Part shown: one piece after another, positions 11,745 to 42,484 of the stretch | Layout of the letters: every line of letters begins with the position of its first letter | How positions within the stretch are numbered: position 1 is the stretch's first letter | NCBI GenBank assembly: GCA_001600815.1 | Contig: BCKZ01000016.1 | Span: forward strand, 237,077 to 301,076 | Length of the DNA stretch: 64,000 bases | Reading direction: 5' to 3' | Origin: Alloascoidea hylecoeti | Lineage: Eukaryota | Notes under the pieces: generated by a model | The model's input: only the letters and a program-made list of their open reading frames with translations | Told to the model about the DNA's origin: nothing | Databases searched by the model: none | Program-made: the position numbers and the translations under genes

Positions 11745-13905
11745 ATGAGGATACTCTGTGTGGCAGAAAAGCCCTCGATCGCGAAGTCCATAGCAAATAC
11801 TCTTGGTGGTGGTATTGTAGAGGCCCGCAACTCCAATGTGAAGTTCATTAGAAACTACGATTTCATATACACCTTCGAGTCTTGGGGAAATTGTCAGGTT
11901 ACAATGACCTCTGTGGCAGGACATATCTCAGACTTGGAGTTTCCCCCTCAATATGGCTGGGGAAAAGTAAGGCCAATTGACTTATTTGAAGCGCCCTTGA
12001 GAATTAGGCTGTTGGACGGAAAGGTAAGTACTGGTTCATGGGCCATTACGCGTCGGTCTATTTTCAGCACCTTTGTTAATTCTAGTAGAATCAAAATGGT
12101 AGGAAAATGTCTGAAAACATCAAAAAAGAAGCCCAAAATGCAGACATCCTGATGATATGGACTGATTGTGATCGTGAAGGCGAATATATCGGTTACGAAA
12201 TAGTCCAGGCTGCACAAAAGGGAAATCCTAATCTCAAAGATGGTAAAGTGGCCCGTGCCAATTTCAACAATTTGGAAAGAAGGTATGTGATCCTTGTCTA
12301 TCTGATACAAAGTAATGTACTAATTACAATCGCTTCGTTAAGCCATATTAGATATGCTGCAAATCACCCTCTTCGTCTAGATATGAGACAAGTTCGAGCC
12401 GTTGAAGCTAGACTAGAGCTTGATCTAAGAGTCGGTTACTCTTTTACTAGATTTCAGACCAATGAGTATCAATCAAGGTTTCCGGGATTGAAGGATCATA
12501 TGATATCTTACGGTACTTGCCAATTCCCCACACTCGGATTTATTGTAGATCGGTATAAGAGAAAAACAAACTTTATTCCAGAGAAGTTTTGGTCTATTGC
12601 CATAGAAGTTTCAAAAGATGGTAAAAATGTTCAATTCACTTGGAATAGAGTCCATTTATTTGATCGGCTTGTAACAAGTATAATATTCGAAAATTGCATG
12701 GCAAATCCCAAAGCGCAAGTGGTATCGGTTATTAATAAACCGACTTCAAAATGGTAAATATAAACCTTTAAATTTCATATTAAAATTAATATCTAATATG
12801 ATATAACAGGAAACCTTTACCATTAACTACGGTTGAATTGCAGAAAAATGGATCTAGGTATCTAAAAATGAGTGCAAAATCGGTCTTGGACGTATGCTAT
12901 CTCGAGTATTGCTTGCTCATCAATATTAACTAACTTTATCTATCTCTAGGTGGCTGAAAAACTATATCAGCAAGGATACGTATCGTATCCAAGGACGGAA
13001 ACAAATCAGTTTGATAAGGCTATGGATTTAAGAAGACTTGTAGAAAAGCAAACAGGCCACAATGATTGGGGTGACTATGCTAGAAGGTATATTAATGTTT
13101 TTTTCTCTTGACTTTTGAACGTTTTAGTGCATAATTTTAACCGTTATTCTCAAGCTTGATAGATAATAAATTTAAAGAACCAAGGAAAGGAAAAAACAAT
13201 GATCATGCACACCCTCCTATACATCCAGTTAACCTTCTGCAAAAAAATGTTTTGCCAGCTGAATCGTTTAAGGTATATGAGTTTATTACTCGTCATTTTC
13301 TTGCCTGTTGTTCAGAAGATGCCATTGGAGATCTTGACTCTGTTGAGTTGGATTGGGAGGGAGAAAAGTTTTCTGCTTCTGGGCTTCATGTGAAGGAGCG
13401 AAACTTTTTAGAAGTATACCCTTATTGGAAATGGGAGAATACAAAAGTATTACCAGAATTTCAACTTGGAGAAGCTATTGAGCTTAGTTCCGCTATGTTA
13501 AAGGAGGGGAAAACGGCAGGGCCAAATATTTTAACAGAACCTGAACTGATTGCATTGATGGATGCCAATGGTATAGGCACTGATGCAACGATAGCAGAGC
13601 ACATTGAAAAAGTTATCCAAAGGCAATTTGTTGAAAAATCGAAAGCAGGAGGACAAACAATTTTTGTCCCCACAACACTTGGAATGGCATTGATAGATGG
13701 ATACGAGGAAATGGGGTTGGAAATATCTCTTTCTAAACCCTATTTAAGAAGGCAAATGGAATTGGGTTTAAAAGATATCTGTAATGGTAAAGTTTCAAAA
13801 GATATAGTACTGCATGAATTACTCCACATCTACAAGGGAACTTTTTGTCTCTGTAACCAGAAGAAACAAATACTCATGAACGCTTATCAAAAATACGTGG
13901 ATTAA
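11745..13905 (+). CDS. TOP3: DNA topoisomerase III; 6 exons 11745-12023, 12089-12282, 12343-12753, 12810-12891, 12950-13086, 13155-13905 (617 aa)
   Basis: TOPRIM LCVAEKPSIA, WTDCDREGE, SYGTCQFPTLG, catalytic GYVSYPRTET (exon 5, missed by the ORF track), GIGTDAT. Exons sum to 1854 nt with a continuous frame. Confidence 0.93.
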
Positions 13906-21183: not shown

Positions 21184-22282
21184 TAATGCTCTTCACGAAA
21201 TTGGATACTCAATCCTTAAAACAATTAATAATGTCCTTCACTAAATTAAATACTTAGTCCTTAAAAGTTTATAAATATCAATTGTCTTGTGCCATACAGT
21301 TTTAATCTATTTTTACCTCTACTGTAGGTAGAATGAATGTAATGATTTTTATATTTTTTCTTGTTTAATACAACAACTGAATAAATTTGTTTATTTTTTT
21401 CTTTTTAACCTAAAATTATATTTTTGGTATAACTTATTACAAAACCTGAATTTTTTACTGTATTTCTTGCAATTGCTTTATCATTAACGTTTAGTTTAAA
21501 ATGTACCTATGATATTAATGAATGAAATTGATTTTTGTTATAATATCGATATCTTTTACGTAAGCCAATAAATACTAAATTATAAATTTGCAATTGTTGA
21601 TATAATTGTTATAGAACTACACATATACAGTAGAAATCCGTAGGGCTATATATAGCTAAAACTCCGTCAGATAACGGTGCACTCCAATGATCCAATGACA
21701 TTACCCTCGGTATACTTATTATTGCTAGATTTGGTTTGGGGGTTATGATATATGTTGGCTGACCGACTAAAGTTGTTAAGATAAAATTTGCAGTTGAACA
21801 ATTTTGGTGGTGTAATTTCCAACTATCGTTACCATTATGGTATATTTTTCTTTACCAAGTTACATTCACAGACAAATCATAGTCACAGTTTCGAGCCTTA
21901 CCTTGTGTTAGAAATAGAAGTAATAATGGGTAGCACCATAACGGTGCGCCCATGTCAGCTCCAGTAGTGCTCTGTTTCTTGAAGGAAAGTATTAGATGTG
22001 GAGATACTGCGCCTTGCTTGATCCTCTTGAGAAGCACCAACAATTTAAAAGTAATTACGTTAACGCTTTCATTCATTTTATCTTTATATATCATTTACAG
22101 AACATTAAAACTATAAAACAGTATTCGTAGGAAAGCAAGCAAAAAAAAAAGAAGCAAATTGAACTCAGGTTCTTGGCATGTATGTGTGTGTCCGTTACGT
22201 CGGTCAGATCTCATTATAATCATCATTTTAGTCTAATCAGAAATGAAACATTTTCTCTTATTTCATTGTATCTTTATTTTTC

Positions 22283-25200
22283 TTAATTTCCAGGATCACG
22301 AATGTGCAATAATAATGAACCAAACATTCCCTCAATCTCTGGTGTTGCCTTAGTAAACTCTAATTCGAAGAATTTGTAATCAGGATTTTGTAATAATTCC
22401 TTGAAAATGATAGTTAGACCCCATGGATGGGGTTTGTTGCAAATAACTCTTTCTAATAAGACACGTGTAATCAGCTGTTGCATATCTCGCTGGTTGCTAC
22501 CCCAAAGTGCGTTAGAATTGAAAAAATTTAATAACAATCTAATGAACCAATAAGTGTGACTGTTAGGATATCGAATTTGATCTACAATTGCCTGAAACAA
22601 AAAGTATCTTCCCTCCACCGAACTTTCTTCGGCAATCCCAGCAAGAAGTGAAGCATAATTAGATTTACTTAGATCAGAAGTTGATACCTGTTTCGACTTA
22701 TCAACAGTTGCAATCATTCCAACATATAAAACTAATGCTTCTATAGCATTTGAATTGAAATTAACATTACTAAATCCTATTCCCGCTTCTTCTTTCTCAG
22801 TAGGCCATTTCAAACCGGAAATAATGTTTTTCAAAGTGACAGTAGATGGTGTCTTCAGGTAATTATCAATGAGTTTTTTGATTCCAAATCTTGATAAATC
22901 ATCTTTAGGATGAATAAAAATAATTGGATGGTCGGATATACCATTAATTTCTTGTAACTTCTCCACTCTCAATCCTTGGGTGAAGGGATCAGGCATTGAA
23001 ACATCTTTTGTAGGGAAAGCACTAAGAACCAAGTTTCGTAGTTGGATGAAAGATGGAGGCATAACAATACAAAGTTGATAATGGTGTTTAACAAACAACT
23101 CAGGATAATCATGGAGTATCAATAAAAACACTCGAACAGTTCCCTTATAGATAACACTAATAGCTTCAGAATAGTTTTTTCCTTTTATATGTGTTCTCTG
23201 AAATTTCAACAGTGATATTAACAAATTAACAAATAGAGGCCATCCTTTGGAATTTGGCAAGTCGAGCAACAACGGCAAAAACATCCTATGGGAAATGAGG
23301 GTAATCCATGCAAAGGTGAACCCAGGAAACAACAATGGTTGTAAGGAATTTAGAAAAACGGCCATAAACTTATAAAATTCAGCATCCAGTCTCGAATCAT
23401 CTTCACTATCTTTGAATTCCGTTTTCTTACTCAAACGTGCATTCCATTCGCATAAAATGCTTGAAAATATTCTAAAAAATGGCTTTTCGTTAAAAGTAGT
23501 ACCATGTATTTCATGTTCGTTAGCTAAAACCAGCGAAACAACAGTGGTGATTGTTCGCAAGTATGAGATCTTCTTCTTCGAATCATTGGTATCTTGAAGT
23601 TTAACGATAATAACAATTAACCTAGCTAATGCATCAAATGTATCATATGAATCGTCTGAAAATTCTCTATCGGTAATAACATCTTTTCGATAAGATTCGA
23701 TAGCCATCTCTGTGGCCACTCTAAAAAATATTGTCAAATATTCATTATCATTCAAAATATTATGTTCAGCTAATTGATTAACAAAAACAAGTAGATGTTG
23801 ATCTGTAACTGCTGGGTGTTGGTTGAGCTTTGTCCATTCAGCAAAAATGTAGATTATCTGTTCCTCTACGGAGCCTGAATAAGAGAGAGATGGAACCGGG
23901 GATTCATCTAACAATGCAAATAACTCTCTGATTTCACCCTGTAGCGCATAATTCTCAATATTGAGAAGATCCCTTAGTGCATCTAATCCAGCAATAAAAT
24001 CGGATCGGAAAGCACAAGGAGTATCCCTTAATACACATTCTCTGATTAAGTCTATGGTAAATTTAATTACCATTTCGGATGCATCCGAAATGCGTTTGGA
24101 TAAGTTCAAGTCAAACTCGGAAGCAGAAATCATACCGACTTTAATCAAAGAAGAAATAACTAGAGCGTTGAACTTGCGTTCATCTGCTGAGTGAACAAAC
24201 CACGAATTAACTTCTCTGTTTGTTAATGGTGATATACTGCAAAGCTTCTCTAGCAAAAAGACTAAAGTTTCGCGAGCCAATTGAGATTCTGAATTGGTGA
24301 ATAATCCATTTACCGTGAACTGTGCAGCTTTTAAGGTAATCTGCTCGCGGGCCTGAAGTTTATTGCATTGGTTGATAATTTGTGATAATAGTCCTTTAAT
24401 GCGATGCCCATCTACAATATCAATTAGGCTCTTTTCTTGACTGTCCAGAGTGAGAGTCACTAGTGATTCGATCAAGGTTTGAATATATACTGACGCTTGT
24501 TCTAGCATCAGATTTGCTGTAAGAACAGAAGGCGAACCTCGAATCGCATTTTCCGGACCAAAAGATGATCCGATTGCTCTTGGGGTTGGAATATCGGCGG
24601 TGTTCGCAGTAATGAGTTCATGTGGTACAATAGTTGTACCCGAGGTGGCACCTAATGTTAACATATCAGGTTGTGTACTAGAACTAATACGTTGTCTGCC
24701 AAAATTTTCATATAAGGAAAACTGCTGAGGGGTAAGTCCTCCAAGCTTCAGTCCGAGTGGATCAAGAAGTTGCAATGGGTACTTAGAGGTTAGTTGAGGA
24801 CTGTAGAATTGCTGGTTTGGTTGCATTTCGCGATGTCGACGGCGGATCGTAATTGATTGAACTAAAATTTCCTCTATATCCTGAACTGCTTTAGCACCAG
24901 CAGCTTTTTCAATCACATTAGAAATCAAATTAATGTTATCTCTAATAGCCATGGAAACCTCTTCTACAGGAAAATTCTGTTCGCCAAACCCATTAGCAAC
25001 CATCGCTGATCTTAAGTTTAGAACGATACTCTCCTTCAATGGATCTCTAGAAGTAGCCAATGCAAGGGTTTCCGCCAGTTCTCTTACAATAGCAAACGCC
25101 GCCTTTCTTAATTTGAAATCGTCAACCTCTAGTGCAAAGTCTTTTAAAACCAAGAATCTTGCTGAAACAATAGCAATCCCAACAGACCGTTCGACAGCAG

Positions 25201-28200
25201 GGGGTAAAATCTCCCTAACAGATTTAATAATTGTCATCTGAAACAACCTCTTCAACGCAGGATTTGTGACAAATGGTGAATCTCCAACAAGACTTGAAAA
25301 TGGTACTTCTCCAGTTCCGTTTAATGCTAATAGTTGTTCTGTATTGAGTCCTCCAGTGGGTACACTCACCTCATCTTCAACTTGCGGTACTCTTGTAACT
25401 TGTGGATTGATAGTCTGAGGAACATTGCGCTGTTGTGTTAACTGGGCTTGTTGTAACTGCTGGAGTCTCAAGAGGTCAGCATTATCTTGAGAAATAGTAG
25501 AATCAGTTATCATTGTGAAAGACGATGGCTGGATTTGGTCTATGTCCAATTTAGCCAGATCAGTGACAATCGAGTCACTGGCGCTAGAATCTCTGACAAG
25601 ATGAGATGCTTCGATGTCATTAAGATCGATGTTCAAAGTATTACATAGCACCTCAATCTCAAATGTTAAATTTAATTTCAATTCAGCATTATCGTAAAGT
25701 TCTTTCAATACCTGTAGGATGCCTAACAACCATGGATTGGGAGGTTTAAAAACTTTAGATGATGCACAGTTGTTTAATATCTTGCTCACAAAAGGAATAA
25801 CAGTGACTAGTCTTGATGTGTTGTAAGCTTCAACCAGTAGGTTCTTAATCGCAATATTTTGGTATCTGATCGGCTTATCTCGTGCAAGGGTCAAATTACC
25901 AAGCCAGGCACCCAAATTCTTCAGATGGCTCCTTTCAGTGGCGGAGTCAGACAAATCAGTTTTACCCAGAAGCTGAATAATTTGACCGTATGTGACATTG
26001 AGAACATGTTGCTCGAGTAATTTACTTCGAATAGATTCAACAACTTGTACATAAAGTTCGTGGTTGTTTGGTTCTAATCTTGCTCTTTGGCCAACAATAT
26101 ATAAGGCAAACCATTTGAAATATTGCTTCTTTAAGATATCTTTCAATTCTTTGGATTTTTCAGGTAACGTATTCAGTGACATGTTATTGACAAGAAATAA
26201 AACTCTATCATGAATATCTTCAGTGGGATCTTCCTGTGGGCAATCGTTGAGAATAATGTTACTGATAAATAAAGATTTGAATGGGTTCACAGACGTAGTT
26301 GGTCCTTGATGAGGATTTGAGGTTTCACCCCTAACATTAGAGAGTTCACTTGTCGCCGTTCCTGAAATAACATCCTTAACGAGTTGATGGAGCCCAGGTT
26401 GAGTAGACAAAGAAGGAATCTGCAGCAGAATGGAACAGTATTTTGGGAACTCGTTGAATCTTCTACTGAAGGCGAACAACGCTTGGACAGAAAACTTGAA
26501 CATATTGGAATCCGGTGGTTGTCTACATGATTCCAAAATAAATTTCAATGCAATAGACAATGCGGTTCCTTCAATTAACCGGAATGAAATAAGTGAGCCA
26601 AATAGTACAGATGTAGTTGCTAAGGCCTCAATCGGATATTCTGGGAAAAAACGATATTCGTCTAGCAATGAATGAATCATACAAGCAAAAACATCTTGAT
26701 CATCAGGACTATCTGACACTTTCAGTCTTTGAAGCATATCAATCACATCACGAATCTGGATTGCTCTGTTGTACATTCGTTGATAGCATAACTTCATTTT
26801 ACTTTCAATTTCGGGCGAGAATGAATTTGTGCTTCCATGTAACAAAATAGCATCATCGTGGCCATAACCAAAATTAATAAGCCTTGGATATGCTTGGAGG
26901 CATTCGGCTTGGACTGATGCCAATGTCTCAACTACTTCAGGGGCTGGTGATGATTGAGCAGAAGCCACTTTAATAATGGTATAAACAGATTGAACATCAA
27001 GATTTCTCTGCATTGAATTTGAAGGGGAAAGACTGCATTCATTGGTTGCCTTTGATCTCAAAAAATGAAGTGTTTGTAAAATGGCAACGGATCCAGATTT
27101 CTGGAAGGTTTTCGATAAATAAGATTCAAATCCATCCCAGTGTGCCAAACCAGGTTGTGATTGTTGATATTTTCTCATAACTGAGATTTTAGAAGCTTGA
27201 GTAGCAATATCAATCGCATTTGGAAAAATAGTGCATTCATCTAAAAAGACATCTACACATTTGGAATCAACAAGAATAGAAGCCAGTCTCATGGAAATAT
27301 CAACATTATATATATTGTTTATGCAGTGAGTCATCATTTCAAGATCTATTTGAGAAAATCTGTAAAATATTAATGAGCTATCGGGAAGAGTAATAGATAA
27401 TTCAAACAATTGTGTAATGATTCTTTCGATGACTGGTTTCCTGGGTTTTGGTGTTTTAATAGCACCCCAAAGTATAAGCTCGGGCTGAAGCTTAACACAT
27501 TCATCCAATAAAGCCGCATCTTCCATGGTTGAACAAGTGGTTTCCAAGAACAAATTACTAAATGATTCAAGATTCAGTAGCTCCTTTTCCATTTCAGTGA
27601 CAGTTGAGTTAAAGTGGGGGAGCGCCTTGATATTATCTTTAGTGATAACTTTGTCGACTTTTAGTGTAGAGATGTTGAAAAAGGTAGAATCCATATGGAG
27701 AGATTGTTGAACGATATGGAGAGATAAGTTATGCGAAAATTTTTTGTTAAAAAATTCATCCAACAGAATATTTGATTCGTCCAATCCAGCTAATAAATTA
27801 TAAAAAATAGTAAGCCCAGCAGACTTAGGGTATACTGGTCTACTCTGTTGAGAAGCTTCAAGATCAACTACGAAGGTATCAAGAACTTCCGACCAGTTTG
27901 TGGAGTTGAAAACTGTAGTTAGAGCTTTAGCAATAACTGACCCATCTAATGGAAGTTCATTGGTTGCATCTTGAGATGTATCCAATAGAATAAGAGTTTT
28001 GAATAAAGCAATGAAATCAGGAACGCCCGTTTGCATCTTTATAGGTGCGATCACCTCAATAAGTTTTTGAAGGTCTTTTGCAAAGAAGTTCCTTGATATA
28101 AGAAGAGTGTTTGTTAAATTGGCTGAGGGAGACATGGCTTTCAAAATATCAATCAGAGCTGATGGGTTCTCTAGATTTTGAGTTAAATTTTCTGAGAAGA

Positions 28201-29001
28201 CTAATAATTCTGATATATTAGTTTCTCTTTGTGGGGTGATAGATAGTAGGGTAAGATATTGAGTTATTAAAGTGTAAATTTCCGTTTGTGGTAAATTGAA
28301 ATTGAGTTCTACGGCTTTATGGAATAACGATTGAATAATTGATGTTGCTATTGAGTGTTAGTAAGAATTCAAAAACAAAACAAGAATCAGAACTTACCTT
28401 GTGCAGACAGAATAGAACTTGTTGAATCTAAAGTTGCTAATGACAAAATAAACCTTTGTTGGGACGATAAATGAAAATGATCAAAAAAAGCTTCCAATTT
28501 GAAATTCTTGAAAACGTCGGCCTCTGTCGTTGAGATTGCTTGAGAAAACTTGTAGGCTTCAGAGGGAGTGTTTGAAAGTGTCTTAATCTCCTCAAATAAA
28601 AGTTTCTCTCCTGGTATGAACTCTGTGAGTTTTGAAGGAGATATAAATATTGACCCAGTGTTGTTAGAGATTAGTCGGCGAAGATACTTAATATAAACTT
28701 CTGGAGGATTTTGTTCACAAAGATTATGAATTTGTTTAACAGTGACGTTCCACTTCTCTTCTTTGATGGTGGTTGCAAGTACTGCCAATTGTGCAATAAC
28801 AATGCGAGATAACTCGGATGATGGGTTGTTAGAAGAGGTATTACCGACTCCGGGGCTATTGCCGCCCGGTGGCGTCTGAGAAATAGATGTAGGCTGCAAC
28901 TGGAGAGGAAATCTAGATGATCCGAGAGTGATCCCTGTTGATGAGGACAAACGCGAGGAGGAGTTTTGTGATGGGGATAATTGGGCTGGGATTGATGATA
29001 T
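22283..29001 (-). CDS. CDC39: CCR4-NOT scaffold Not1; intron 28397-28348; start codon uncertain (near-cognate candidates ATA 29001 or TTG 28950; first ATG 28135)
   Basis: RIVIAQLAVL N-terminus, CLQAYPRL, DEYRFFPEYP, LKNLGAWLG, QIRYPNSHT, RVLLERVICNKPHPWGL. A 50-nt intron (GTAAGT..TACTAAC..TAG) joins the two ORF-track pieces in frame. Confidence 0.93.
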
Positions 29002-29134
29002 TTTGGAAAGATATTCAAGTAGTTAGAAGAAATTTTTCAAACTAAATCAGGTTTTGCAATATTATATCCCGATTTAATTCAATTTAAAATCAACTATCAA
29101 TATAAAGCAAAATATTTTGAATTTTCTTATTTTG

Positions 29135-29521
29135 CTATTCAGAATATGTGGATTAACTATTCATCAATTGTTTAATCAACCAGTGTTTAATAATAGTTTA
29201 CGTATCCTTCAGAGTATGAGATAGCGAAAACAATGACAGCACTATTGATAAATAAAAGATATGATATTGTGGTATTGCTTTAGCCAAAAAAATAAAGTGG
29301 TGAAAAAATTTGTAAGCCTAATATTACGGTTAGAGTCACGAAAACATTTATAAATTTAGCGAACGGGGACAGAAATTGCAGTCCTTGAGTTCCGACACAT
29401 GCACATTAAATAGTTAGTGGCTCGTGTAAGCTGAGGCATTGTCAAACAATTCTTTCCAACGTTTACTATGGGCGCATCATGTTCTCGGCAAAAAAAACTG
29501 ATCTTATTCAACAAGACATAC
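29135..29521 (-). other. Candidate 5'-UTR intron of NOT1
   Basis: Consensus donor AG|GTATGT at 29521. Candidate branch/acceptor GTTAAT..GAATAG ending at 29135; alternative TTCTAAC..CCCAG ending at 28986. Confidence 0.5.
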
Positions 29522-29708
29522 CTTGAAGTTATAAACAGGTTTAACAAAGAACCACGTAAGTGAGTATGTGGGATGATTGATGGTATAAGACGGTAATTGT
29601 GATCGGAGCGAAGTCGATGATTATGAATTCGCGGTTATTGGTTAGTGGCGAAGGGGTCGAAAGAACAAAATGACTAAGTTGTTCAAAAGTGAGAGAGAAC
29701 TGAAAGGC

Positions 29709-29715
29709 AGGGTAA
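29709..29715. promoter_or_regulatory. Reb1-like TTACCCT site, probable NOT1 promoter
   Basis: Followed on the minus strand by a pyrimidine-rich stretch typical of a transcription start region. Confidence 0.4.
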
Positions 29716-30725
29716 CCTAATCTACTTGGTAACCCCACCATGAATTAGAGAAGTCAACGTCCCTCAACAAGTTATGCTTAAGCTCTGGTATAATTTGAAC
29801 TGAAGAAAAGATAGATTAGAAACAATACAAAATAATGGCAGATGTTGTTTATGGGAAAAAGCAATTGAAAGTTTTAAATTTAAGTCAATTATGAAAGAAG
29901 ATTTAAAAAATCTTAATTGCAACTCTCAGAGTCTCACAGTGGATTGTTCTAGATTAGAAAATAGCTTTGAATAATATTGTGTTGTAGAAACCGGAAACAT
30001 AATAGGCCATATATTTGTAGTTTTAGTATTTAATAGAAATTGATATACAATTACCCGGTATATTGTTTGTGTAGGAATAATTATCATTACCCTTCTGAAT
30101 CTTCCGAATGGTCATATGGGTGTGGAGAAAAAAGTTTAAATTTAACTATTATATATCCAGTTACAAATTTACTTGTTGCATTTACTTGTTTTAAATGTAA
30201 CATGATTGATTATATCATGTCTCGAGAACATTTAAACTAAATCGAAACTCAGAATCAAATAAAAAAAAAACTATATATATAGCTAATATAATTATAATCG
30301 ATAACGGATAACCTAACGGTTGTCCTTGACTTTGTGAATGGGTAGCCCTAATTTTGGAAGAGTGAATTTTAAATTTTTTAATTATAGGTCTTCAACATAG
30401 CCCTATACCATGTCATACTGTACCGGTATATAGGTCTATAGCTAAATTTACTCTAGAGAACTTATTATCATAATTATAAGTTATAACGCATATTGCTAAT
30501 AATTACATAAGCTTATTATTAACAGTTAAACCGCTTATTTAGTTTGAACTCGTACATCTGACTAATGCTTATTCACAGTAAGCAACTACTAAGCATGATT
30601 TGTCACCATTGAATTATCTATTGTATCTTTTTAACAACTTGAATCATTAATCATAAAATTATATTGATATTAGTATATATATCGTCAAATAACTCATTTC
30701 ACTCTAAAATTGAATAGTTAATGGT

Positions 30726-31850
30726 ATGGGTTTGTTGTCTTTTAAGGTCCTTTTAACAACTTTAATTCTTACTTTTATGTCTTATATTTTAAAATCATTC
30801 ATGAACTCTTCTTTAACATCGACAATTACAATGAATCCAGCAAAAAGTGTTTCTTCCAGTGAATCCTATTCTACTTCCACTTCAGGTAGAACCCCAGTGT
30901 ACTTCTTTTCTCATGGTGGTCCAACTTTTATGTACGAAAACGATGAAATGGGCGATAAAGGTGCATGGCAGTTGATTCGCAAAATCGGTAAATTTATGAA
31001 GTCTACGATAAAGCCTGAAGCTATCGTTGTTGTTTCTGGTCATTGGGAGTCGACCGTTGAAAATACTATTCTTGTAGACTGTCCAGGTTCTAAGTCCAAT
31101 GCACCTGTTGAAAAGCTACTAAAATATTCACGTACTCCTGTATCAACACCTACAGAGGCCGACGAATTAAAACTGATCTACGATTTTTATGGATTCCCAA
31201 AATACATGTATGAAGAGAAGTTCATTGCCAACGGTTCTAGGAAATATGCAGATAAGGTTGTCGAGGCTATAAAATCGGTTGATTTAAATGCTAAAACTGT
31301 AACACGGGGTATCGATCATGGAGTTTGGGTTCCATTTAAGGTTGCTTTCCCGGACCAATATGACCAGAACAATTCAAAAAAGCAAATTAAAAACGTTAAT
31401 ATTCCAATTATTCAAGTGAGTTTAGGTTATAATTCTTCAATTGAGTGGCATTTCAAGGTTGGTCAGGCGCTAGGTAAATTAAGAGCTCAAAATATTTTGA
31501 TTATTGGTTCGGGAATGACAGTCCATAATCTTAGAGATCTAGGGATCGCAATGGGAATGGGTAAGCCAATGCCATATGTCTCGCAATTCGAGAATGAGTT
31601 GAAAAGATTGGTTGATTCACATCATGTTAATGAAGAAATGTGTTCTGATATTAAAGCCTTGCTTACGAATAAAAAGGAATTGTATCGTAAAGCTCATCCA
31701 TCTCCTGATCATTTTCTACCGTTTGTTGTTGCCGCTGGAGCTGCTGGAGAAGACTTTGGGAAGCAGTTATATACAAACAGCACTTTGAGTCTGGCCTGGG
31801 GCACTTATCAGTGGGGCGAATGGAAAGCAGGTCAGAATGTTAAAATCTAA
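30726..31850 (+). CDS. Extradiol ring-cleavage dioxygenase, LigB/DODA family
   Basis: FFSHGGP, VVVSGHWE, LIYDFYGFP, RGIDHGVWVP, IIGSGMTVHNL, AHPSPDHFLP. Confidence 0.92.
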   Translation: MGLLSFKVLLTTLILTFMSYILKSFMNSSLTSTITMNPAKSVSSSESYSTSTSGRTPVYFFSHGGPTFMYENDEMGDKGAWQLIRKIGKFMKSTIKPEAIVVVSGHWESTVENTILVDCPGSKSNAPVEKLLKYSRTPVSTPTEADELKLIYDFYGFPKYMYEEKFIANGSRKYADKVVEAIKSVDLNAKTVTRGIDHGVWVPFKVAFPDQYDQNNSKKQIKNVNIPIIQVSLGYNSSIEWHFKVGQALGKLRAQNILIIGSGMTVHNLRDLGIAMGMGKPMPYVSQFENELKRLVDSHHVNEEMCSDIKALLTNKKELYRKAHPSPDHFLPFVVAAGAAGEDFGKQLYTNSTLSLAWGTYQWGEWKAGQNVKI

Positions 31851-35805: not shown

Positions 35806-37614
35806 TGGCTTTCTATATGTTTTATTGTATAGCTATAGTTTATGATTTTAATTGCATCGTGTTTTGAATTCGAACTACTTACCAGAACAGGCAGAAGGTA
35901 TTGTTATTAGATTATACAGCTACAGTTTTAATCCTTATCACGATCCTTTTTCATATATATTGACTATCATATTCATAATTATATTATAATGTGATCATGA
36001 ATGTTAGAGTTGTGTTTTGTTTTAATATGATTATCTAGATTTTTCTTTCAATAAGTTTCTAGTATAGTGCTAGAATAGTAAATATTAGATTATATAGATA
36101 TTCCCTTTTATAAATTAACCGAGATTACCTTTATTTCCCAACTCGATTTAATCTTATTGTTCAGCTGACAAAACGGAAGTTCAATCCAGATGATCATGAT
36201 GATCTTTTGCCATACTTTTAAGTATCAATAACCCTGATTTCATTTAACTACCACTATTTTTATTTCATTCCTAACATTGCAATTGAGCTAATTATTATTG
36301 TTGAGGAGAAATATCTGTCCTTGTTAAATTTAGGTTATAATATTAAGCAAAGTTTCTGATGGTTTATAATTACTACAATGCTCTAGTCATTATACAAATT
36401 TTGGATTTTAAAAATGAATAACATTTTATTATTGTCTAATGAGCAAGTTAAGTGAGATTTTTTTAAAAATATTTCTCTTCTAACTAAGATAACTAACTAC
36501 AGCTAGTTCCGATGAGTTTTAATGGGCAAAGTGGAGAAAACATCATTTAGAGCTAGTGAGGTCAATATTGGCTTAAGCTTCGGCTCCTTCCTAGGGGTAT
36601 AGAAATCCAAAAAATATCCAGAACCTTCTATCATTTATAAAATTTTCTTTATCTTAATGATATTGTAAAAAAAAAAAGGCTAAGATTTAATTACTTATAT
36701 ATGTCACCAATAAGTTTATGATTCTATGTGATCCTACATGTTTGTGGCGCTACTGTCGAAACCCCAAGTGTAGCAGAAAGTTCCTAGAAATAAGCACTCT
36801 AGCTATAAGTCGAATATCATCTTTTTTTAAATAAAATAATTGCTAGGAAAGACACAAGAGTAATATGTTAGGTGACAAGACTTGTTTGATTGACTTTTCA
36901 ACCTAACCCGAGTGAGATATAAGCTTTGTATGTCTGAGTTAAAAGGGTGATTGCTTAAGTCGATTACAAGTTATTGATTACAAAAGGTTCATATTTTCTT
37001 TTCTTATCTGGAAAGTGAGTGGCTTGTGGTTAGTTCATTTTAAAACTCTCCTTCCTTGGCATTGAAACACGTTCGCGATATATTCCTAACAATTAGACAG
37101 TAAAAACTTCTTGGATTTGTTCATCTCGTTTCCGTCCTATTAATTATAATCATTCCTTTAATATTTATTTTACTTTATTGCTCTCATATTAAATTCTATT
37201 CTTCCCTATGCTTATCGTTAGTTCCTAAAATTGATATCGATATCAGAAAAATTGTAAATTGTAAGTTTGTAAAAGTAGTTATTATATTAATTGTATTTTA
37301 AAGAAAAAGGTTAAGAAGCAAAATCCTTTAAGAGGATTTTGTTCTTTATATAGTTAGCTATGTAAGCGGTATCCAAAAATAATAAAGTGGAGTAAGTGCT
37401 ATAAGAGCATAAGAAAGGTGGGAAGGATTCTCATAGACGTAAAATCACATGATAAATCACGTAGAAATAGAAAGTCTTATAAAGATGACAGGTAAGATAG
37501 AAATGCATATCTTTATTCTTATTTAATTATCCTTTCCTAGACCTTCTTATTTCTTATTATATATCAATTGCAATTTAATTTATGAACAATGTCAATATAG
37601 TGTAGTGTTATAAT

Positions 37615-37990
37615 TAAGGGTGTCAAAATTATTTAATATGTCCATATACAGCCATACAATTCAACCGATCGTTATGGAAGAAGAAAGTCCACCGTTACAA
37701 GATAAATTAAATACTCTCACTAAGGAGAATCTATTGATTCCAATCATAGAAATCTTAGTGAATGAATAAGATAAAAAGAAAGCAAAACAAGCAGATAAAT
37801 CTGAAGTTGTCCAACGCGTCCAACAAAATTGGTCAAATTTTACCCCACGAGGTAAAGGCTGGATCACTCATCATTTCACATTTGACGAAGAATAGAAGTA
37901 TTCTTTTGATCAATATTGCAAATTGGTTTATCCCATATGCATAGTAATCAAAATGATGCTCCCACTCACCTCGCCTCCTTAATTCACTTG
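37615..37990 (+). mobile_element. Possible hAT transposase 5' relic (BED-finger-like)
   Basis: Stop-interrupted frame from ATG 37674: ..GWITHHFTFDEE*KYSFDQYCKLVY, then PTHLASLIHL after a frameshift. Preceded by AAGGGTGTCAAAA. Confidence 0.3.
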
Positions 37991-38202
37991 TAAAGAATGA
38001 TAGTAGTAGTATTAATAAAATTAATAAAGTTAATAATTAAATTAACAATGATAATGATAATGATAAGGGGAAAAAGGTATATTAAAATTTTTTGTAAGTT
38101 TTCTATTTACTATATGAAATATTCTTTGATATCTTTCAGTGTAATTTCATATCCATATAGATTTATTAGATGAGTATTGTTACATTATCTACCTAAATCC
38201 TA

Positions 38203-38614
38203 CTACCGGAAATATGGCAGCATGCATATAAACCCTCCAAATATATTGAGGTAACATACAAAATTGCTTTCACCAAATCTAATACATTCTTTTGGAATTA
38301 ATCCAATGTAATTGCATTCACATTGGTGATCGTTCGCATCACATAGATCAAACATATTGATGAACAACTTATGACAGTCCAGGTATTTTTCTTCAGTCTA
38401 TACATGTATATGTTATATTAGAATAACCAAAAAAAAACCTGAGTGCTGTAGTTCTCATACACAGAGATTTCCAACCTCCTAAAAAAAAGAAATGGGTATT
38501 TGTATGTAGAACGTTGTGGGAGACGCAAACCCGGAGAAATATACCAAACTTACAGATTACATAGATTATATAAATTTGATATGGAAGATCATATATTTGG
38601 CTAATATAGTACAT
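38203..38614 (-). pseudogene. Candidate spliced small Cys-rich (CFEM-like) gene or pseudogene
   Basis: 18-nt exon 38478-38461 (EVGNLC), 63-nt intron GTATGA..CTAAT..TAG, then exon 38397-38203 TEEKYLDCHKLFINMFDLCDANDHQCECNYIGLIPKEC.. First exon uncertain. Confidence 0.45.
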
Positions 38615-39289
38615 TTTTAAAGAAGAAATCAGATCAAGTTTTGGTCTTCAAGAGTGGATTCTTTAATCATAACAAGTTATTGATTGAACTGAAAAAGTGA
38701 CAAGTTTCATGCAGTTCATCATTTTTAGTTGAGTTATTGATTATTGAGTTTTCGACTATCGAGACATCATGTGAGAGTTTGTGTTCTCTTTTAGATATTT
38801 GTTGTCCCTTTTATCTTTTATATATACTTTCGCGTCAAAGTCTAGATATCCAACAGTATTTTATGTTTTTTTGTAAATAACTTTTATTATAACAGACTAA
38901 TAATACTAAAAGTGCTCGGATGTGCCCTGATTGCATATACCCATTCAATAGTGCTTTTAGTCTGTTCTTGAAAATGGTGTCATTGGAAAAGGCGATCTTG
39001 ATAATATTTGTTTTGATTTGGTCTGGTCTATATATAGGCATATACATTGGTATATTTATATAAAAGTGACCAAAAATCTATAATTTTAGTTAGTAACAGA
39101 TCAAATAAATTGAAGATTATAGTACTTTATAACCTAACCAGGTTCCTGAATATTATATATTGGAAAATATGGTTTAGGTCCCATTATAAAATATTATTTA
39201 ATTATGTTCTTCATAATATTGTATAGACAAATTAAAGGCTCATATTATGTGAAGAAGCTTATACCGGTATCTAAGAGATAGCCATAATA

Positions 39290-39510
39290 ATAAGTGACTG
39301 CTACAACCTTTGTAATGTCCGAAATTACTTCTTCTGGTACAGCAACAGCTCAAAATATTGCTACCACATTTGTACACACAAATAGCGCTACCTCTTGGAT
39401 ATATCGATATTATGTTCCACCGGAGATTGTTTTGCGATAGTTTCTAACGGCAAATCACAGTCAGAAAGCACCAAACATGCCAAGCTTCTTGTGATTCTAG
39501 GTAAAAACAT
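39290..39510 (+). mobile_element. Possible LTR-retrotransposon integrase core relic
   Basis: TATAQNIATTFV..WIYRYYVPPEIV resembles TA..IA..F...I.RYG.P.EIVSD; SNGKSQSE in another frame resembles SNGQ.ER. Confidence 0.4.
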
Positions 39511-40134
39511 CTTTTTTCCATGTTTTTCAAAAATCTCACGTATAGAGTTGTTTCTCGCACTGTATATTCTTATCTATTCGACTTCAGTGAAGCGCCTATG
39601 GGTAGACTTTCTCATCGGGAATCTTTCTACAACTTTTAAAATTAATATATAATTGAGTTGATATTTTAGAGTTAAACCTTTTTAGTGCAACCAAAGGATT
39701 ATTTACATATTCAAAGAAATAATCCGAAACAATTTAAAAAGTCAAACATGGAATACAATTTTACGTGTAGGTTTAGGGTTAAAAATTATTTTGAGTCCTA
39801 ATAGAAACCGTTATTGACTATAACTGCCTATAGTAGGTCCTTCATTGTTGAGCAAAGCTTTCTTCTACCTAGAAACGTGCAAACTTTTGATAAACTTTAT
39901 TTGAGAATATCTCATCGAAATATCAATCCATTTTAAACATTCAAAATACAATTGACTCATTTGACTACAGAGCTAAACCAGCTCCTCTTTTATTTCCTTG
40001 GTACAGGCATATACTTATGCTAAAATTAGATTGGTAGAATATAGCAAATCAACTGACGGAAAGCCATAGATAGTTCTCACGCAGGGTCTGGTAAATTTTA
40101 AAAGGGCCTGGTGAAAAAGCAGTAGAAGCTTCAG

Positions 40135-40810
40135 GTGTCCTCCAAAACAACAATTCAGACGACTTTAAATACGGTGAAATTACTGGAAAAACGGCTAAGA
40201 GGTCAATGCTAAACGCACTCCATAGAAAGCGGAGGTTTGAATTTGCAATTACCAAGGATCATATTAATTGGATCTAGACAGCAGATGATTTGAGACGTGT
40301 GATATGCTCGAATGAATCGCCTGCTGCAAAAATGTTTCCAGCTTTACAGCGGCTATAATAATTGTTACTCGTTACCAAAATAACAAGTACCTATGATTAC
40401 TGTGATGGTATGGAGAGCATTTGGGGAAGACAAAAGATCGTTTTGAAGAGGGAAAGAATCATTCAGAGAAGTATCTAGAATAGTACTACAACTGGTAGCA
40501 AAATCTTTCATTCAGGTGCACTTAGAACTTTATTATTTTTGGAGGAAAATTAAATGGAGCAGCCGTGTGCCTGCAAACTCTTCGGACCTAAACCTCATTG
40601 AAAACGCGTAGCACAAGCTTAAAATTTACCTGAAAACCAGACACCTGGAGTTGGTTCAAAGGTGGTATCAAGAAGGTCAAGAATCGTCTTTGGAAGTATT
40701 ACCAGTGCTATGGGATCAGTTAGATACATCACTTTTTGATTGACTCATCACATCCATGTAAAAGCAACTAGAGCTAGTTGTGGCAGCATATTGGGTACTT
40801 ACTACTTAGT
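40135..40810 (+). mobile_element. Degenerate Tc1/mariner (Tc1-type DDE) transposase
   Basis: In order, with stops and frameshifts: HRKRRFEFA..W..ADDLRRVICSNES (WSDES), TVMVWRAF (VMVWG), PANSSDLNLIENA*HKLK (WP.NSPDLNPIENLW), LITSM*KQLELVVAA. TIRs not identified. Confidence 0.85.
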
Positions 40811-41435
40811 TAGCGCTAGACAGGCTAGAGAACATGATTTCTATTTCCGTTTGTAATATTTCTCTAAAAATCGATCCTTTAATCAGGAATTTATTTTCAT
40901 AAATTGTATGTATTTTGCTCCGAAAAACAAAGCTATGCGTAACATCCGATCAAATAAGTTATACACTACAGTATAGGCTTGTATGAATAATTATTGTTGA
41001 TTTGATAATGATTATATCTTATAAAGTTCTTATAGTTTTAATTTTCAAACGTTAGCGTTAATGTCTGACTGTAATTTAATTTAAGAGTAACATACAGAAT
41101 GATAATACATTATAATAATTAATATACTTTAAAAACAACGTTTTTTGACTGGAATATTATTAATAATATATGGGGACTATCATATTAGTCTCATCGGTAC
41201 GTATGTAATTATACATGTATGTTTATTAGCTTTATCCACGACTAGATGTATGTGATTGATATTTTTAAACGGAAAATATCATCCCGAAAATTTTGATATC
41301 CGATCGATATACAGAGCAAATTAGATCCGAAAATATTTGGGATTAATTATTAATGTGGTATCTAAAATTTTTGAAAGTCAAAAGTATAAACTTATATGAT
41401 TATAATTACTTTGGTAATCTAAAATTCTATATATA

Positions 41436-41514
41436 ATGACGGAGGCATATTAACAGGCCTGATAACAGAATAGATTGAATGGCGTAATCAGTCCTGTTTA
41501 TCTGGCCCCGTCAT
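41436..41514. repeat. Imperfect inverted repeat: 31-bp arms (25/31 ungapped), 17-nt spacer
   Basis: ATGACGGAGGCATATTAACAGGCCTGATAAC versus the reverse complement ATGACGGGGCCAGATAAACAGGACTGATTAC. Confidence 0.8.
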
Positions 41515-42484
41515 ATAATCTATATTTTTTGTTATGATCGCAATATTTATTAGCCAACATGATCTAGGACCGAAAGAATAGTCGCATTATGACACAATGT
41601 TACAGGTAACCTAATAGTTCTCCTTATCCTTTGCTTTCCTTGAGATGGTTTCGATATCTGAGAATCATGATTAAACTTATAAACATTTGTGAAATATGCA
41701 TTTTTGTTACATGATTATGAACTGGACTACATGTTTCTGTCCACTGGAAACAAGTTCCAGGCTTTATACTTATAACCAGAACTAGCTATATTATAAAGAG
41801 AAATTTCCCAGTTTATTCCTTGCGAACTTCGCAAATTACTAAAGCCTTATAGAAGACAAGCTCTGATTAAATTTAGGTTATAGTTTCGCAGAATCACAGA
41901 GTCAGTCACACATGTCCATTATCTGTAAACACTGTAGTGATTGATATTTCATGTTTGTTTGCTCTCCAGCTACTAGCTGTTCATGTATTCATGATTAATA
42001 TTTCAAGTTTGTTTGCTATTCCTGTAGCAAATACTTTAGCTAGGTATGATTGATGCATTCATGATAACAACAGTTACCTGTAATACTAAAACAGTATAAT
42101 GCATATATACCGGTGATCTACAATCCTTTATAGCCATAGCCACTTTACAATTGCAAAGTATTGAAAAATAGAAATATCGATGGTTTAATTTGGATAATTA
42201 ATTATAATTACTGGTGTATATAAGAAAGCGCAGTATATTGTAATGAATTCTTTATAATAAATATTAATATTGTACCTGGAATTTTCTTCGCTTGCATCGT
42301 AACTGTCATGTCACTCTTATTTCAAAAAACACGGCCCAAACCGGAAATATTTAATTAAGTCATGTGCATGTACTTAAACTATATACATTTTTAAGTTTAA
42401 ATACATCTACAAATTTATATATATATAGCCTTCTTCAAATCTCATTAATTCTGTTCTATTTTTGAACCATTTGTTTATTTAATA

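What the first reader, a model, noticed from the sequence alone, without database searches (positions are those of the whole stretch)
28135..29161. NOT1 has a ~1-kb AUG desert covering its conserved N-terminus: near-cognate initiation plus leaky scanning to make two isoforms
Seen: by manual count the NOT1 sense strand has no ATG in any frame from 29161 to 28136 (1026 nt), versus about 23 in the adjacent ~1 kb downstream (27121-28135). The desert contains an open frame bounded upstream by TAA (29025-29023). That frame encodes the recognisable Not1 N-terminal helical domain (RIVIAQLAVLATT..VYIKYLRRLI) and is joined in frame by a canonical 50-nt intron. The first ATG (28135, AAAGCC-ATG-TCT, good context) lies ~272 codons in. 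Candidate near-cognate starts are ATA at 29001 in an ideal yeast context (AAA-ATA-TCA) and TTG at 28950. Established: S. cerevisiae Not1 is reported to be made as long and short forms from two in-frame AUGs. Inference: here the long form (~2220 aa) starts at a non-AUG codon, and ribosomes that skip it scan >800 nt to make a 1950-aa form lacking the N-terminal module. The isoform ratio of the central CCR4-NOT scaffold would then depend on start-codon stringency. Loss of out-of-frame ATGs as well argues for selection on scanning, not on protein composition.
Basis: partly seen in the sequence, partly recalled or inferred. Interest (0 to 1): 0.88.

Follow-up and report, generated by a model that had tools for sequence, protein, structure and literature searches.

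The report
ATG-free leader in yeast NOT1
The start of this yeast's NOT1 gene has no ATG for a kilobase, which matches a design already proven in baker's yeast for making a long and a short form of the protein; what is unusual here is that the long form has no visible ATG start codon.

Summary
On the NOT1 sense (minus) strand no ATG occurs in any frame between 29164 and 28135. This 1029-nt gap is the largest in the window; the next largest is 424 nt. Dinucleotide shuffles expect about 10 ATGs, and 0 of 5000 shuffles had none. Out-of-frame ATGs are also depleted given the protein (P 0.014-0.024).

The feature is not new in kind. In S. cerevisiae, NOT1 has no ATG in any frame between AUG1 and AUG-M163. 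Mutagenesis showed that leaky scanning makes a major short isoform and a minor full-length isoform, and only the full-length one binds Caf130 (PMC8970588, passages read).

The same design appears across budding yeasts. 37 of 37 Not1 models with the N-domain have no Met until residue 154-310. The window's exon 1 folds like the CNOT11-docking N-domain of CNOT1.

What differs here is that the exon has no in-frame AUG1. My estimates for the long-form start are:
- about 0.33, a 7-nt ATG microexon at 29164 spliced through a weak GTTAAT donor;
- the remainder, loss of the long form, another upstream exon, an assembly error or chance.

No RNA data were available. Interest is moderate.

The parts
28136..29161 (-). 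ATG-free tract (all three frames) between ATG 29164 and ATG 28135
   Evidence: Largest ATG gap in the window; 0 of 5000 dinucleotide shuffles reach zero ATGs.
28133..28135 (-). AUG2, the presumed start of the major short isoform (1950 aa), in context aaagccATGtct
   Evidence: It lies in the linker after the N-domain, 9 residues from the second-Met column shared by other budding yeasts. It matches the 'KM[SN]SL' seen in the closest relatives P0006 and P0010.
28398..29022 (-). Exon carrying a disordered S/P-rich leader (about 29022-28825) and the Not1 N-terminal helical domain (from about 28824). It contains no ATG.
   Evidence: P0001; 95 relatives, best E=1e-23; residues 67-208 helical, pLDDT above 90; top folds are the CNOT1 N-domain in 8bfi_A, 8fy4_A and 8fy3_A.
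28348..28397 (-). 50-nt intron (GTAAGT...TTACTAAC...AATAG) that keeps the frame
   Evidence: P0006 and P0010 begin their open frames at the homologous point, consistent with an intron at the same position.
22283..28347 (-). Main NOT1 exon, running to the stop codon
   Evidence: P0002. One search finds Pfam Not1, CNOT1_CAF1_bind, CNOT1_TTP_bind, DUF3819, ARM_Cnot1 and CNOT1_HEAT.
29153..29164 (-). ATG AAT AGT TAA. This is the only ATG upstream of AUG2 in the presumed leader, in a weak context (T at -3). It is either AUG1 on a 7-nt microexon or a 3-codon upstream ORF.
   Evidence: A phase-1 GT follows at 29157; by chance this occurs in 42 of 449 ATGs with equally short frames.
28986..29157 (-). 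Candidate 172-nt intron: weak donor GTTAAT, branch-like TTCTAAC at 29028-29022 (which contains the TAA that closes the frame), and the first AG at 28987-28986. Splicing would give M-N-T-QLSPS...
   Evidence: Against it: 0 ATG where 2.6-3.8 are expected, and T at +3 is seen in none of the 5 donors read by eye in this window.
28999..29001 (-). ATA, the best in-frame near-cognate candidate (aaaATAtca, A at -3). It is the first of 7 in-frame near-cognate codons before the domain.
   Evidence: No downstream hairpin (z=+1.24).
29318..29521 (-). Candidate 5'-UTR intron: GTATGT donor, CTCTAAC at 29335-29329, TAG at 29320-29318. It encloses all seven ATGs from 29519 to 29347.
   Evidence: One search took 29321 as the lower bound. 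The flanks 29740-29522 and 29320-29165 are ATG-free and G-poor (0.13 and 0.12) against 0.19 inside.

Best explanation
The ATG-free kilobase is the counterpart in this yeast of the leaky-scanning tract of S. cerevisiae NOT1.

How it works: ribosomes that do not start the long form keep scanning through a leader and N-terminal coding region that selection keeps free of ATG in every frame. They start at the first ATG (28135), which lies in the linker after the N-terminal domain. This gives a 1950-aa Not1 that lacks the domain which docks Caf130 in S. cerevisiae (CNOT11 in animals). A minority of ribosomes start upstream and make the full-length scaffold carrying that domain.

Shown here:
- the tract and its statistics;
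- the identity and fold of the N-domain;
- the Met-free N-domain and shared second Met in other budding yeasts.

Shown elsewhere (S. cerevisiae): that such a tract yields two isoforms by leaky scanning.

Inferred: that the same happens in this organism.

Unresolved: where the long form starts, since the exon has no in-frame ATG. The options are a spliced ATG microexon at 29164 (about 0.33) or a near-cognate codon such as ATA 29001 (about 0.30). Loss of the long form, another upstream exon, an assembly error or chance make up the rest.
For: -: the 1029-nt ATG gap is the largest in the window.
- 0 of 5000 dinucleotide shuffles reach zero ATGs. Out-of-frame ATGs are depleted given the protein (P 0.014-0.024), and there is no Met in 279 codons.
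- (PMC8970588, passages read): S. cerevisiae NOT1 has no ATG in any frame between AUG1 and AUG-M163. The M163L and M163A mutants, and inserted out-of-frame ATGs, abolish or reduce the major short isoform. Only the long form binds Caf130, through residues 21-153. AUG1 has T at -3.
- 37 of 37 budding-yeast models with the N-domain have no Met from residue 6 to residue 154-310. All 7 Pezizomycotina-like models have a Met by residue 8-94.
- 31 of those yeast rows place the second Met in one alignment column. Species of the S. cerevisiae family have it at 154-170.
- 11 public models start exactly at that Met (MSFKELL... and similar).
- the exon-1 product folds as the CNOT1 N-domain of the NOT1:NOT10:NOT11 module.
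- AUG 28135 has a purine at -3, while ATG 29164 has T at -3.
Against: - No RNA, ribosome or protein data exist for this organism in what I could reach, so transcript ends, splicing and isoforms are all inferred.
- The tract is G-poor, which lowers the ATG expectation, although the shuffles keep composition.
- MAFFT places the window's Met 9 residues downstream of the common second-Met column.
- AUG1, a defining element of the S. cerevisiae design, is not identified here.
- Protein-level Met deserts in relatives say nothing about their out-of-frame ATGs, because I could not fetch their DNA.
- The orthologue rows are related sequences, so 37 of 37 is not 37 independent events. One of the 37 (P0222) has a first residue that its JGI twin P0031 reads as V.
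Confidence: 0.8

Rival explanations
1. Long-form start by splicing. ATG 29164 is AUG1, in a weak context. Its 7-nt coding microexon (ATGAATA) is joined through a weak GTTAAT donor to the acceptor at 28986|28985, giving M-N-T-QLSPSQ... Unspliced mRNA would read a 3-codon upstream ORF and still deliver ribosomes to AUG 28135. Weak splicing would then set the isoform ratio together with leaky scanning.
For: - ATG 29164 is the only ATG left in about 1.4 kb of presumed mature leader once the candidate GTATGT intron is removed. In S. cerevisiae the one ATG upstream of AUG2 is AUG1.
- It has T at -3, as S. cerevisiae AUG1 does.
- The only GT available before its stop gives phase 1, which matches the only stop-free acceptor that has a branch-like motif and the first AG. 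The chance rate for such a GT is 42 of 449.
- The stop that closes the frame lies inside the TTCTAAC motif.
- Relatives' open-frame models read 'VLTFAQ' just before the leader (P0020, P0025). This is what a read-through TACTAAC...CAG would give, so a 5' intron at this spot may occur in other yeasts.
- Exon-1 fragments from relatives start MNTGPSD (P0168) and MNSSS (P0220).
Against: - The GTTAAT donor has T at +3 and A at +5. All 5 donors I read by eye in this window have A at +3.
- The branch-to-AG distance is 36 nt, against 9-15 nt in those introns.
- The putative intron has 0 ATG where 2.6-3.8 are expected, and it is as G-poor (0.10) as the flanking leader.
- Other equally weak microexon options exist: ATG 29741 with GTAGAT, and ATG 30231 with GTAAAT. 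Such matches therefore arise easily.
- The residues 'SKIS', which match P0220, would fall inside the intron.
Confidence: 0.33
2. The long form starts at a near-cognate codon in the exon: ATA 29001 in aaaATAtca, possibly with help from the six further in-frame near-cognates before the domain. Its level would then be a few per cent of the short form and would depend on start-codon stringency. ATG 29164 would be either outside the mRNA or a tolerated 3-codon upstream ORF.
For: - The exon frame is closed by TAA at 29025-29023 and has no ATG, yet it still encodes a confidently folded, conserved N-domain.
- No ATG exon with a consensus donor lies within the 1.7 kb up to the divergent gene.
- The ATG-free state continues 140 nt upstream of the frame. 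This is expected if that stretch is mature leader, but is a 2-7% coincidence if it is an intron.
- ATA has A at -3.
- The domain is dispensable in S. cerevisiae, where an M1L allele is viable, so loss of AUG1 would be tolerated.
- A second yeast model (P0031, JGI copy) also has no Met before the domain.
Against: - From my own recall, not from any call, AUA is among the weaker near-cognate starts in yeast.
- No hairpin follows it.
- Conservation of the codon could not be tested.
- The apparent starts of relatives' leader models scatter: equivalent positions -20, -7 and +6 to +17 relative to the window frame.
- One ATG (29164) is tolerated in an otherwise purged leader, and this reading does not explain why.
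Confidence: 0.3
3. The long form is no longer made. AUG1 was lost recently, and the N-domain exon now serves only as an ATG-free 5' leader for the essential short form.
For: There is no AUG1 in the exon. The domain is non-essential in S. cerevisiae. The ATG-free state would still be selected for the sake of the short form.
Against: 279 codons stay open across an intron in a 36% GC genome. The N-domain remains 41-52% identical to its closest relatives and folds with pLDDT above 90. Decay would be expected unless the loss was very recent.
Confidence: 0.12
4. The start lies elsewhere or the sequence is wrong. Either an ATG exon further upstream (for example ATG 29741 with GTAGAT, or ATG 30231 with GTAAAT, giving 740-1200 nt introns) joins at 28985, or the assembly carries an error at the true start.
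For: The divergent intergenic space is 1.7 kb, large for this compact window. Phase-compatible candidates exist. GTAAAT is a donor form used in TOP3.
Against: The known introns here are 50-77 nt. The candidate donors are weak or need very long introns. I could not inspect DNA reads, because my one run search asked for RNA runs.
Confidence: 0.15
5. The desert is a by-product of composition and chance and has no role in translation.
For: The segment is G-poor.
Against: 0 of 5000 composition-preserving shuffles reach zero ATGs. The same protein re-coded seldom lacks out-of-frame ATGs. The orthologous tract is functional in S. cerevisiae and Met-free in 37 of 37 yeast orthologues.
Confidence: 0.03

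Closest known systems
S. cerevisiae NOT1/CDC39 two translational isoforms by leaky scanning (Pillet et al. 2022, eLife, PMC8970588; passages of the Results read)
   Same: - Same gene.
- No ATG in any frame from the long-form start to a second in-frame Met that lies after the N-terminal domain.
- The upstream ATG has T at -3.
- The skipped part is the Caf130-binding N-domain.
   Different: - The tract is about twice as long: 1026 nt, of which 837 nt are coding, against 486 nt.
- It is interrupted by a 50-nt intron.
- The exon has no in-frame AUG1, so the long-form start must be spliced on or be non-AUG.
- Nothing has been tested experimentally here.
Human CNOT1 long and short isoforms (review PMC12746107, passages read)
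   Same: The two forms differ by an N-terminal region of at least 235 residues that docks CNOT10/CNOT11. The window's exon-1 model superposes on that domain.
   Different: The review states that the origin of the human isoforms is unknown (transcription, translation or splicing). No ATG analysis of the human gene was done here.
Non-AUG-initiated N-terminal extensions, such as yeast GRS1 (UUG) and ALA1 (ACG) (both recalled, not looked up), and N. crassa cpc-1 (PMC5487733, search listing only)
   Same: There is conserved coding sequence upstream of the first AUG, closed by an in-frame stop, with near-cognate codons available.
   Different: In those cases the non-AUG start is experimentally mapped and the codon is conserved. 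Here neither is known, and a spliced AUG is an equally good reading.
S. cerevisiae DOT1 two isoforms by leaky scanning (PMC2790890, abstract seen in search listing)
   Same: One mRNA gives two in-frame starts, with the ratio set by scanning.
   Different: It is a different gene. I did not check whether it has an ATG-free tract.

Membership tests
Not1/CNOT1 scaffold of CCR4-NOT | Ordered Pfam domains CNOT1_HEAT, CNOT1_TTP_bind, CNOT1_CAF1_bind, DUF3819, ARM_Cnot1 and Not1 | tested here: met
   P0002 matches all of them (Not1 E=1e-131, CAF1_bind E=1.6e-88); 257 homologues, named CCR4-NOT subunit 1 wherever a name is given.
CNOT1 N-terminal (CNOT11/Caf130-docking) domain | Helical N-domain superposable on CNOT1 in the NOT1:NOT10:NOT11 module | tested here: met
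   residues 67-208 have pLDDT above 90. Foldseek's top three are 8bfi_A, 8fy4_A and 8fy3_A (E=3e-4 to 7e-4, probability 1.00, about 140 columns, rmsd 2.9-3.4). A sequence search of the PDB found nothing.
CNOT1 N-terminal (CNOT11/Caf130-docking) domain | Binds Caf130 or CNOT11 | not testable with these tools
   No genome is held for this organism, so I could not even look for a Caf130 gene.
S. cerevisiae-type NOT1 leaky-scanning tract | No ATG in any frame between the long-form start and the second in-frame Met | tested here: met
S. cerevisiae-type NOT1 leaky-scanning tract | Second Met located after the N-domain and conserved among orthologues | tested here: met
   The window's Met is 9 residues from the common column and matches the 'KM[SN]SL' of its closest relatives.
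S. cerevisiae-type NOT1 leaky-scanning tract | An in-frame AUG1 in weak context at the 5' end of the tract | tested here: inconclusive
   ATG 29164 has T at -3, but it is in frame only if a weak GTTAAT donor is used. The exon itself has no ATG.
S. cerevisiae-type NOT1 leaky-scanning tract | Two protein isoforms from one mRNA | not testable with these tools
   No RNA holder was listed, and nothing was laid from three metatranscriptome runs.
Non-AUG-initiated N-terminal extension | Conserved coding sequence upstream of the first AUG, with an in-frame stop and no AUG further upstream in the exon | tested here: met
Non-AUG-initiated N-terminal extension | A near-cognate codon in good context that is conserved in relatives | tested here: inconclusive
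   ATA 29001 has A at -3.
Non-AUG-initiated N-terminal extension | Mapped initiation (footprints, N-terminal peptide, mutagenesis) | not testable with these tools
   No data were available.

The most novel reading that the evidence does not exclude
In this yeast, and perhaps in a few others whose open-frame models also lack a Met before the domain (such as P0031), AUG1 of NOT1 has been replaced by near-cognate initiation. The full-length, Caf130/CNOT11-docking form of the CCR4-NOT scaffold would then be made only at the low rate set by start-codon stringency (eIF1/eIF5). Every other ribosome would scan about 870 nt of spliced, ATG-free message to make the short form. This would be a natural 'M1-less' allele of a two-isoform switch conserved throughout budding yeasts.
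Probability: 0.3. Interest if true: 0.7.

Novelty: new member of a known kind. Interest (0 to 1): 0.45.

Why it matters
Not1 is the scaffold of the main eukaryotic deadenylase. Its N-domain recruits the Caf130 module in S. cerevisiae and the CNOT10/11 module in humans. In S. cerevisiae the Caf130 module is needed for negative regulation of RPL3 and RPL4 mRNA levels.

A recent review still lists the origin of the two human CNOT1 isoforms as unknown, and treats two isoforms as possibly general.

This window, together with the Met-free N-domains of 37 of 37 budding-yeast orthologues, suggests that the leaky-scanning design proven in S. cerevisiae is old and widespread in that subphylum. It can be read directly from DNA as an ATG-free tract.

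The missing AUG1 offers a natural test of how little long isoform a yeast can live with, and of whether splicing or start-codon stringency sets the ratio.

I did not find the comparative point in the eLife paper by term search ('orthologues', 'evolutionarily conserved' and 'other fungi' each had 0 occurrences). I did not read that paper in full or see its supplements.

Tried and rejected
- **Own genome:** none is held.
- **RNA runs:** no RNA holder was listed. Three metatranscriptome runs of the same study laid nothing on 22000-31000.
- **DNA reads:** my single run search asked for RNA, so no DNA runs were listed and I could not check ATA 29001 against reads.
- **Relatives' DNA:** the metagenome scan with P0001 returned one locus, L001. 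On reading, it is an unrelated TPR-like frame that matched the pattern EQNPPEVY. I found no route to yeast genome DNA with these tools.
- **Word-index protein searches with exon 1 alone:** none scored, either among longer proteins (capped at 2000 aa, below Not1 length) or among proteins of similar length.
- **PDB by sequence:** only a chance Ankyrin-2 hit at E=0.92.
- **Hairpin after ATA 29001:** none. The region folds worse than shuffles (z=+1.24).
- **Continuous frame from ATG 29164:** rejected. Read by eye, its own frame ends after 3 codons (ATG AAT AGT TAA) and the NOT1 frame opens only after the TAA at 29025-29023.
- **Acceptor at 28813|28812 (TTCTAAC, 14 nt, GAG), which would make the S/P-rich leader intronic:** rejected. 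The leader is GC-rich (0.5 against 0.2 upstream) and aligns with relatives' leaders of the form '..QQL..PKGVGGG..SEL..IV(I/V)AQL'.
- **Window-wide intron scan to enlarge the donor sample:** too noisy to use.
- **tRNA and Rfam scans of the window:** nothing found.
- **Earlier notes of this scan:** none.


Full report
**Observation**

NOT1 lies on the minus strand. The main exon runs from 28347 to the stop at 22283. A 50-nt intron (28397-28348: GTAAGT, TTACTAAC, AATAG) separates it from an upstream exon. That exon's frame is open from 29022 to 28398 and is closed upstream by TAA at 29025-29023.

On this strand no ATG occurs between 29164 and 28135. The 1029-nt gap is the largest on either strand of the window, and the next largest is 424 nt.

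Dinucleotide-preserving shuffles of the 1026 nt expect 10.4 ATGs, and none of 5000 shuffles had zero. Within the 279 spliced codons there is no Met. Shuffling codon order gives zero ATGs in 0.5% of trials. Re-coding the same protein with the gene's own downstream codon usage gives zero in 1.4%, and permuting synonymous codons within the segment gives zero in 2.4%. The depletion therefore affects out-of-frame ATGs as well, which points to selection on scanning and not only on protein composition.

**What the region encodes**

The main exon carries the full set of CNOT1/Not1 Pfam domains.

The upstream exon (P0001) has no Pfam match. In an exhaustive HMMER search it finds 95 relatives, the best at E=1e-23, and they match at or near the N-terminus of full-length Not1 proteins.

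An AlphaFold2 model built on 45 sequences has a disordered S/P-rich leader (residues 1-66) and a confident helical domain (residues 67-208, pLDDT above 90). Foldseek's three best PDB matches are the CNOT1 N-terminal domain in the human and chicken NOT1:NOT10:NOT11 modules. The tract therefore covers the docking domain for CNOT11, whose counterpart in S. cerevisiae is Caf130.

**What is already known**

Pillet et al. 2022 (PMC8970588; I read the relevant Results passages and the Figure 2 legend) report the following for S. cerevisiae NOT1:
- The M163L and M163A mutants remove the major short isoform.
- Silent out-of-frame ATGs at codons 40 or 156 suppress the short isoform.
- The authors conclude that leaky scanning makes a less abundant full-length form and a major form starting at M163.
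- Only the full-length form binds Caf130 (residues 21-153) and mediates RPL3 and RPL4 mRNA regulation.
- The native AUG1 context is tacATG.

A 2025 review (PMC12746107, passages read) adds that human CNOT1 also has two isoforms, of unknown origin, differing by the CNOT10/11-docking N-terminus.

**Conservation**

I took the N-termini of the Not1 models returned. 37 of 37 budding-yeast models that contain the N-domain have no Met between residue 6 and residue 154-310 (median 235). All 7 Pezizomycotina-like models have a Met by residue 8-94.

Rows left out of the 37:
- P0025 and P0031, open-frame models without a first Met.
- P0020, which has a long spurious extension.
- The models that start at the second Met.

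One of the 37, P0222, has a first residue that its JGI twin P0031 reads as V.

In a MAFFT alignment, 31 of those yeast rows place the second Met in a single column. Members of the S. cerevisiae family have it at 154-170. Eleven public models begin exactly there, with MSFKELL... or similar.

The window's Met is aligned 9 residues downstream of that column. However, it matches the 'KM[SN]SL..LL' found in its closest relatives, a Yarrowia-like group whose models start at or just before this Met.

The orthologues are related, so these counts are not independent events, and I could not see their DNA to test out-of-frame ATGs.

**The real peculiarity: no AUG1**

In this window the exon that encodes the leader and N-domain has no in-frame ATG. 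I examined the options in turn.

*(a) Spliced microexon.*
- For:
  - ATG 29164 (caattgATGaat, T at -3) is followed by AAT AGT TAA.
  - The only GT before that stop (GTTAAT at 29157) leaves one extra base.
  - The only stop-free acceptor with a branch-like motif needs exactly one base. This acceptor is CAG at 28986, the first AG after TTCTAAC at 29028-22.
  - Among ATGs with equally short frames, 42 of 449 have such a GT by chance.
  - If the candidate GTATGT...CTCTAAC...TAG intron (29521-29318) is real, it removes all seven ATGs between 29519 and 29347. ATG 29164 is then the sole ATG in about 1.4 kb of leader. That is the position AUG1 holds in S. cerevisiae.
- Against:
  - The five donors I could read in this window are GTAAGT (twice), GTAAAT, GTATGC and GTATAT, and all have A at +3.
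  - Their branch-to-AG distances are 9-15 nt, not 36.
  - The putative 172-nt intron has no ATG where 2.6-3.8 are expected, and it is as G-poor as the leader.

*(b) Near-cognate start.*
- For:
  - Seven in-frame near-cognate codons precede the domain.
  - Only ATA 29001 and ATC 28932 have a purine at -3.
- Against:
  - No hairpin follows ATA.

*(c) Exon further upstream.* Phase-compatible ATG exons exist, but they need introns of 740-1200 nt and weak donors.

*(d) Loss of the long form.* This is hard to square with an intact, well-conserved 279-codon frame.

*(e) What relatives add.*
- Exon-1 fragments (P0161, P0168/P0220, P0187, P0204) share the leader and the domain. P0204 has the same longest-contig length as P0010, so the two may lie on one contig.
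- Their apparent first Mets scatter, and some may be read-through of introns or leaders.
- Models P0020 and P0025 read 'VLTFAQ' before the leader, as a TACTAAC...CAG intron end would. P0031 has no Met before the domain.
- A 5' intron and a missing in-exon AUG1 may therefore not be unique to this window.

I put the microexon at about 0.33, the near-cognate start at about 0.30, loss at about 0.12, and another exon or an assembly error at about 0.15.

**Limits**
- No genome is held for this organism.
- No RNA holder was listed, and nothing was laid from three metatranscriptomes.
- The metagenome scan gave only a false locus.
- Transcript ends, splicing and isoforms are all inferred.
- I saw only passages of the two key papers and none of their supplements.

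**Verdict**

This is a real, non-random feature. It is best read as the local version of a published NOT1 leaky-scanning design, with comparative support for that design across budding yeasts. The open and testable question is how, or whether, the long isoform starts here.

Noticed in passing
window 29318-29521 (-): Candidate 5'-UTR intron with a perfect GTATGT donor and CTCTAAC, 11 nt, then TAG. All seven upstream ATGs (29519-29347) fall inside it, while both flanks are ATG-free and G-poor. An alternative acceptor lies at 29384 (CACTAAC...AAG). A TATAAA at 29352-29347 overlaps ATG 29347.
   Followed up: partly
window 11745-13905 (+): A TOP3-like gene (Toprim and Topoisom_bac domains) is split by four short introns (about 55-77 nt). 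Its donors are GTAAGT, GTAAAT, GTATGC and GTATAT. Its branch motifs are TGTTAAT, TCTAAT, AACTAAC and TTTTAAC, lying 9-15 nt from the AG. This yeast therefore tolerates A at donor position +5 and degenerate branch sites.
   Followed up: partly
window 35806-42448: A 6.6-kb AT-rich stretch (GC 0.25-0.39) has no open frame of 100 codons on either strand. It has no tRNA and no Rfam match, in an otherwise compact gene array.
   Followed up: no
window 29541-29741 (-): A 66-codon ATG-started frame (MVGLPSRLGY...) lies in a C-rich, G-poor stretch upstream of NOT1 and ends 20 nt before the GTATGT donor. I did not test whether it is an upstream ORF, a small gene or chance.
   Followed up: no
proteins P0018, P0023, P0061, P0064, P0066, P0069, P0071, P0079, P0080, P0089, P0092; P0004, P0005, P0007-P0009, P0016: Many public Not1 models, including the Yarrowia lipolytica entry P0008, begin at the conserved second Met and lack the N-domain. 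They may be annotation truncations caused by the same ATG-free design or by 5' introns.
   Followed up: partly
proteins P0020, P0025, P0031/P0222: Open-frame NOT1 models from other yeasts read 'VLTFAQ' before the leader, consistent with a read-through TACTAAC...CAG. Others start with V or L instead of M. This hints that a 5' intron or a missing in-exon AUG1 recurs in other lineages.
   Followed up: partly
locus L001 1610-1879: The single metagenome 'relative' of exon 1 is a chance match through the peptide EQNPPEVY, in a 54% GC contig encoding a TPR-like frame. It is not NOT1.
   Followed up: yes
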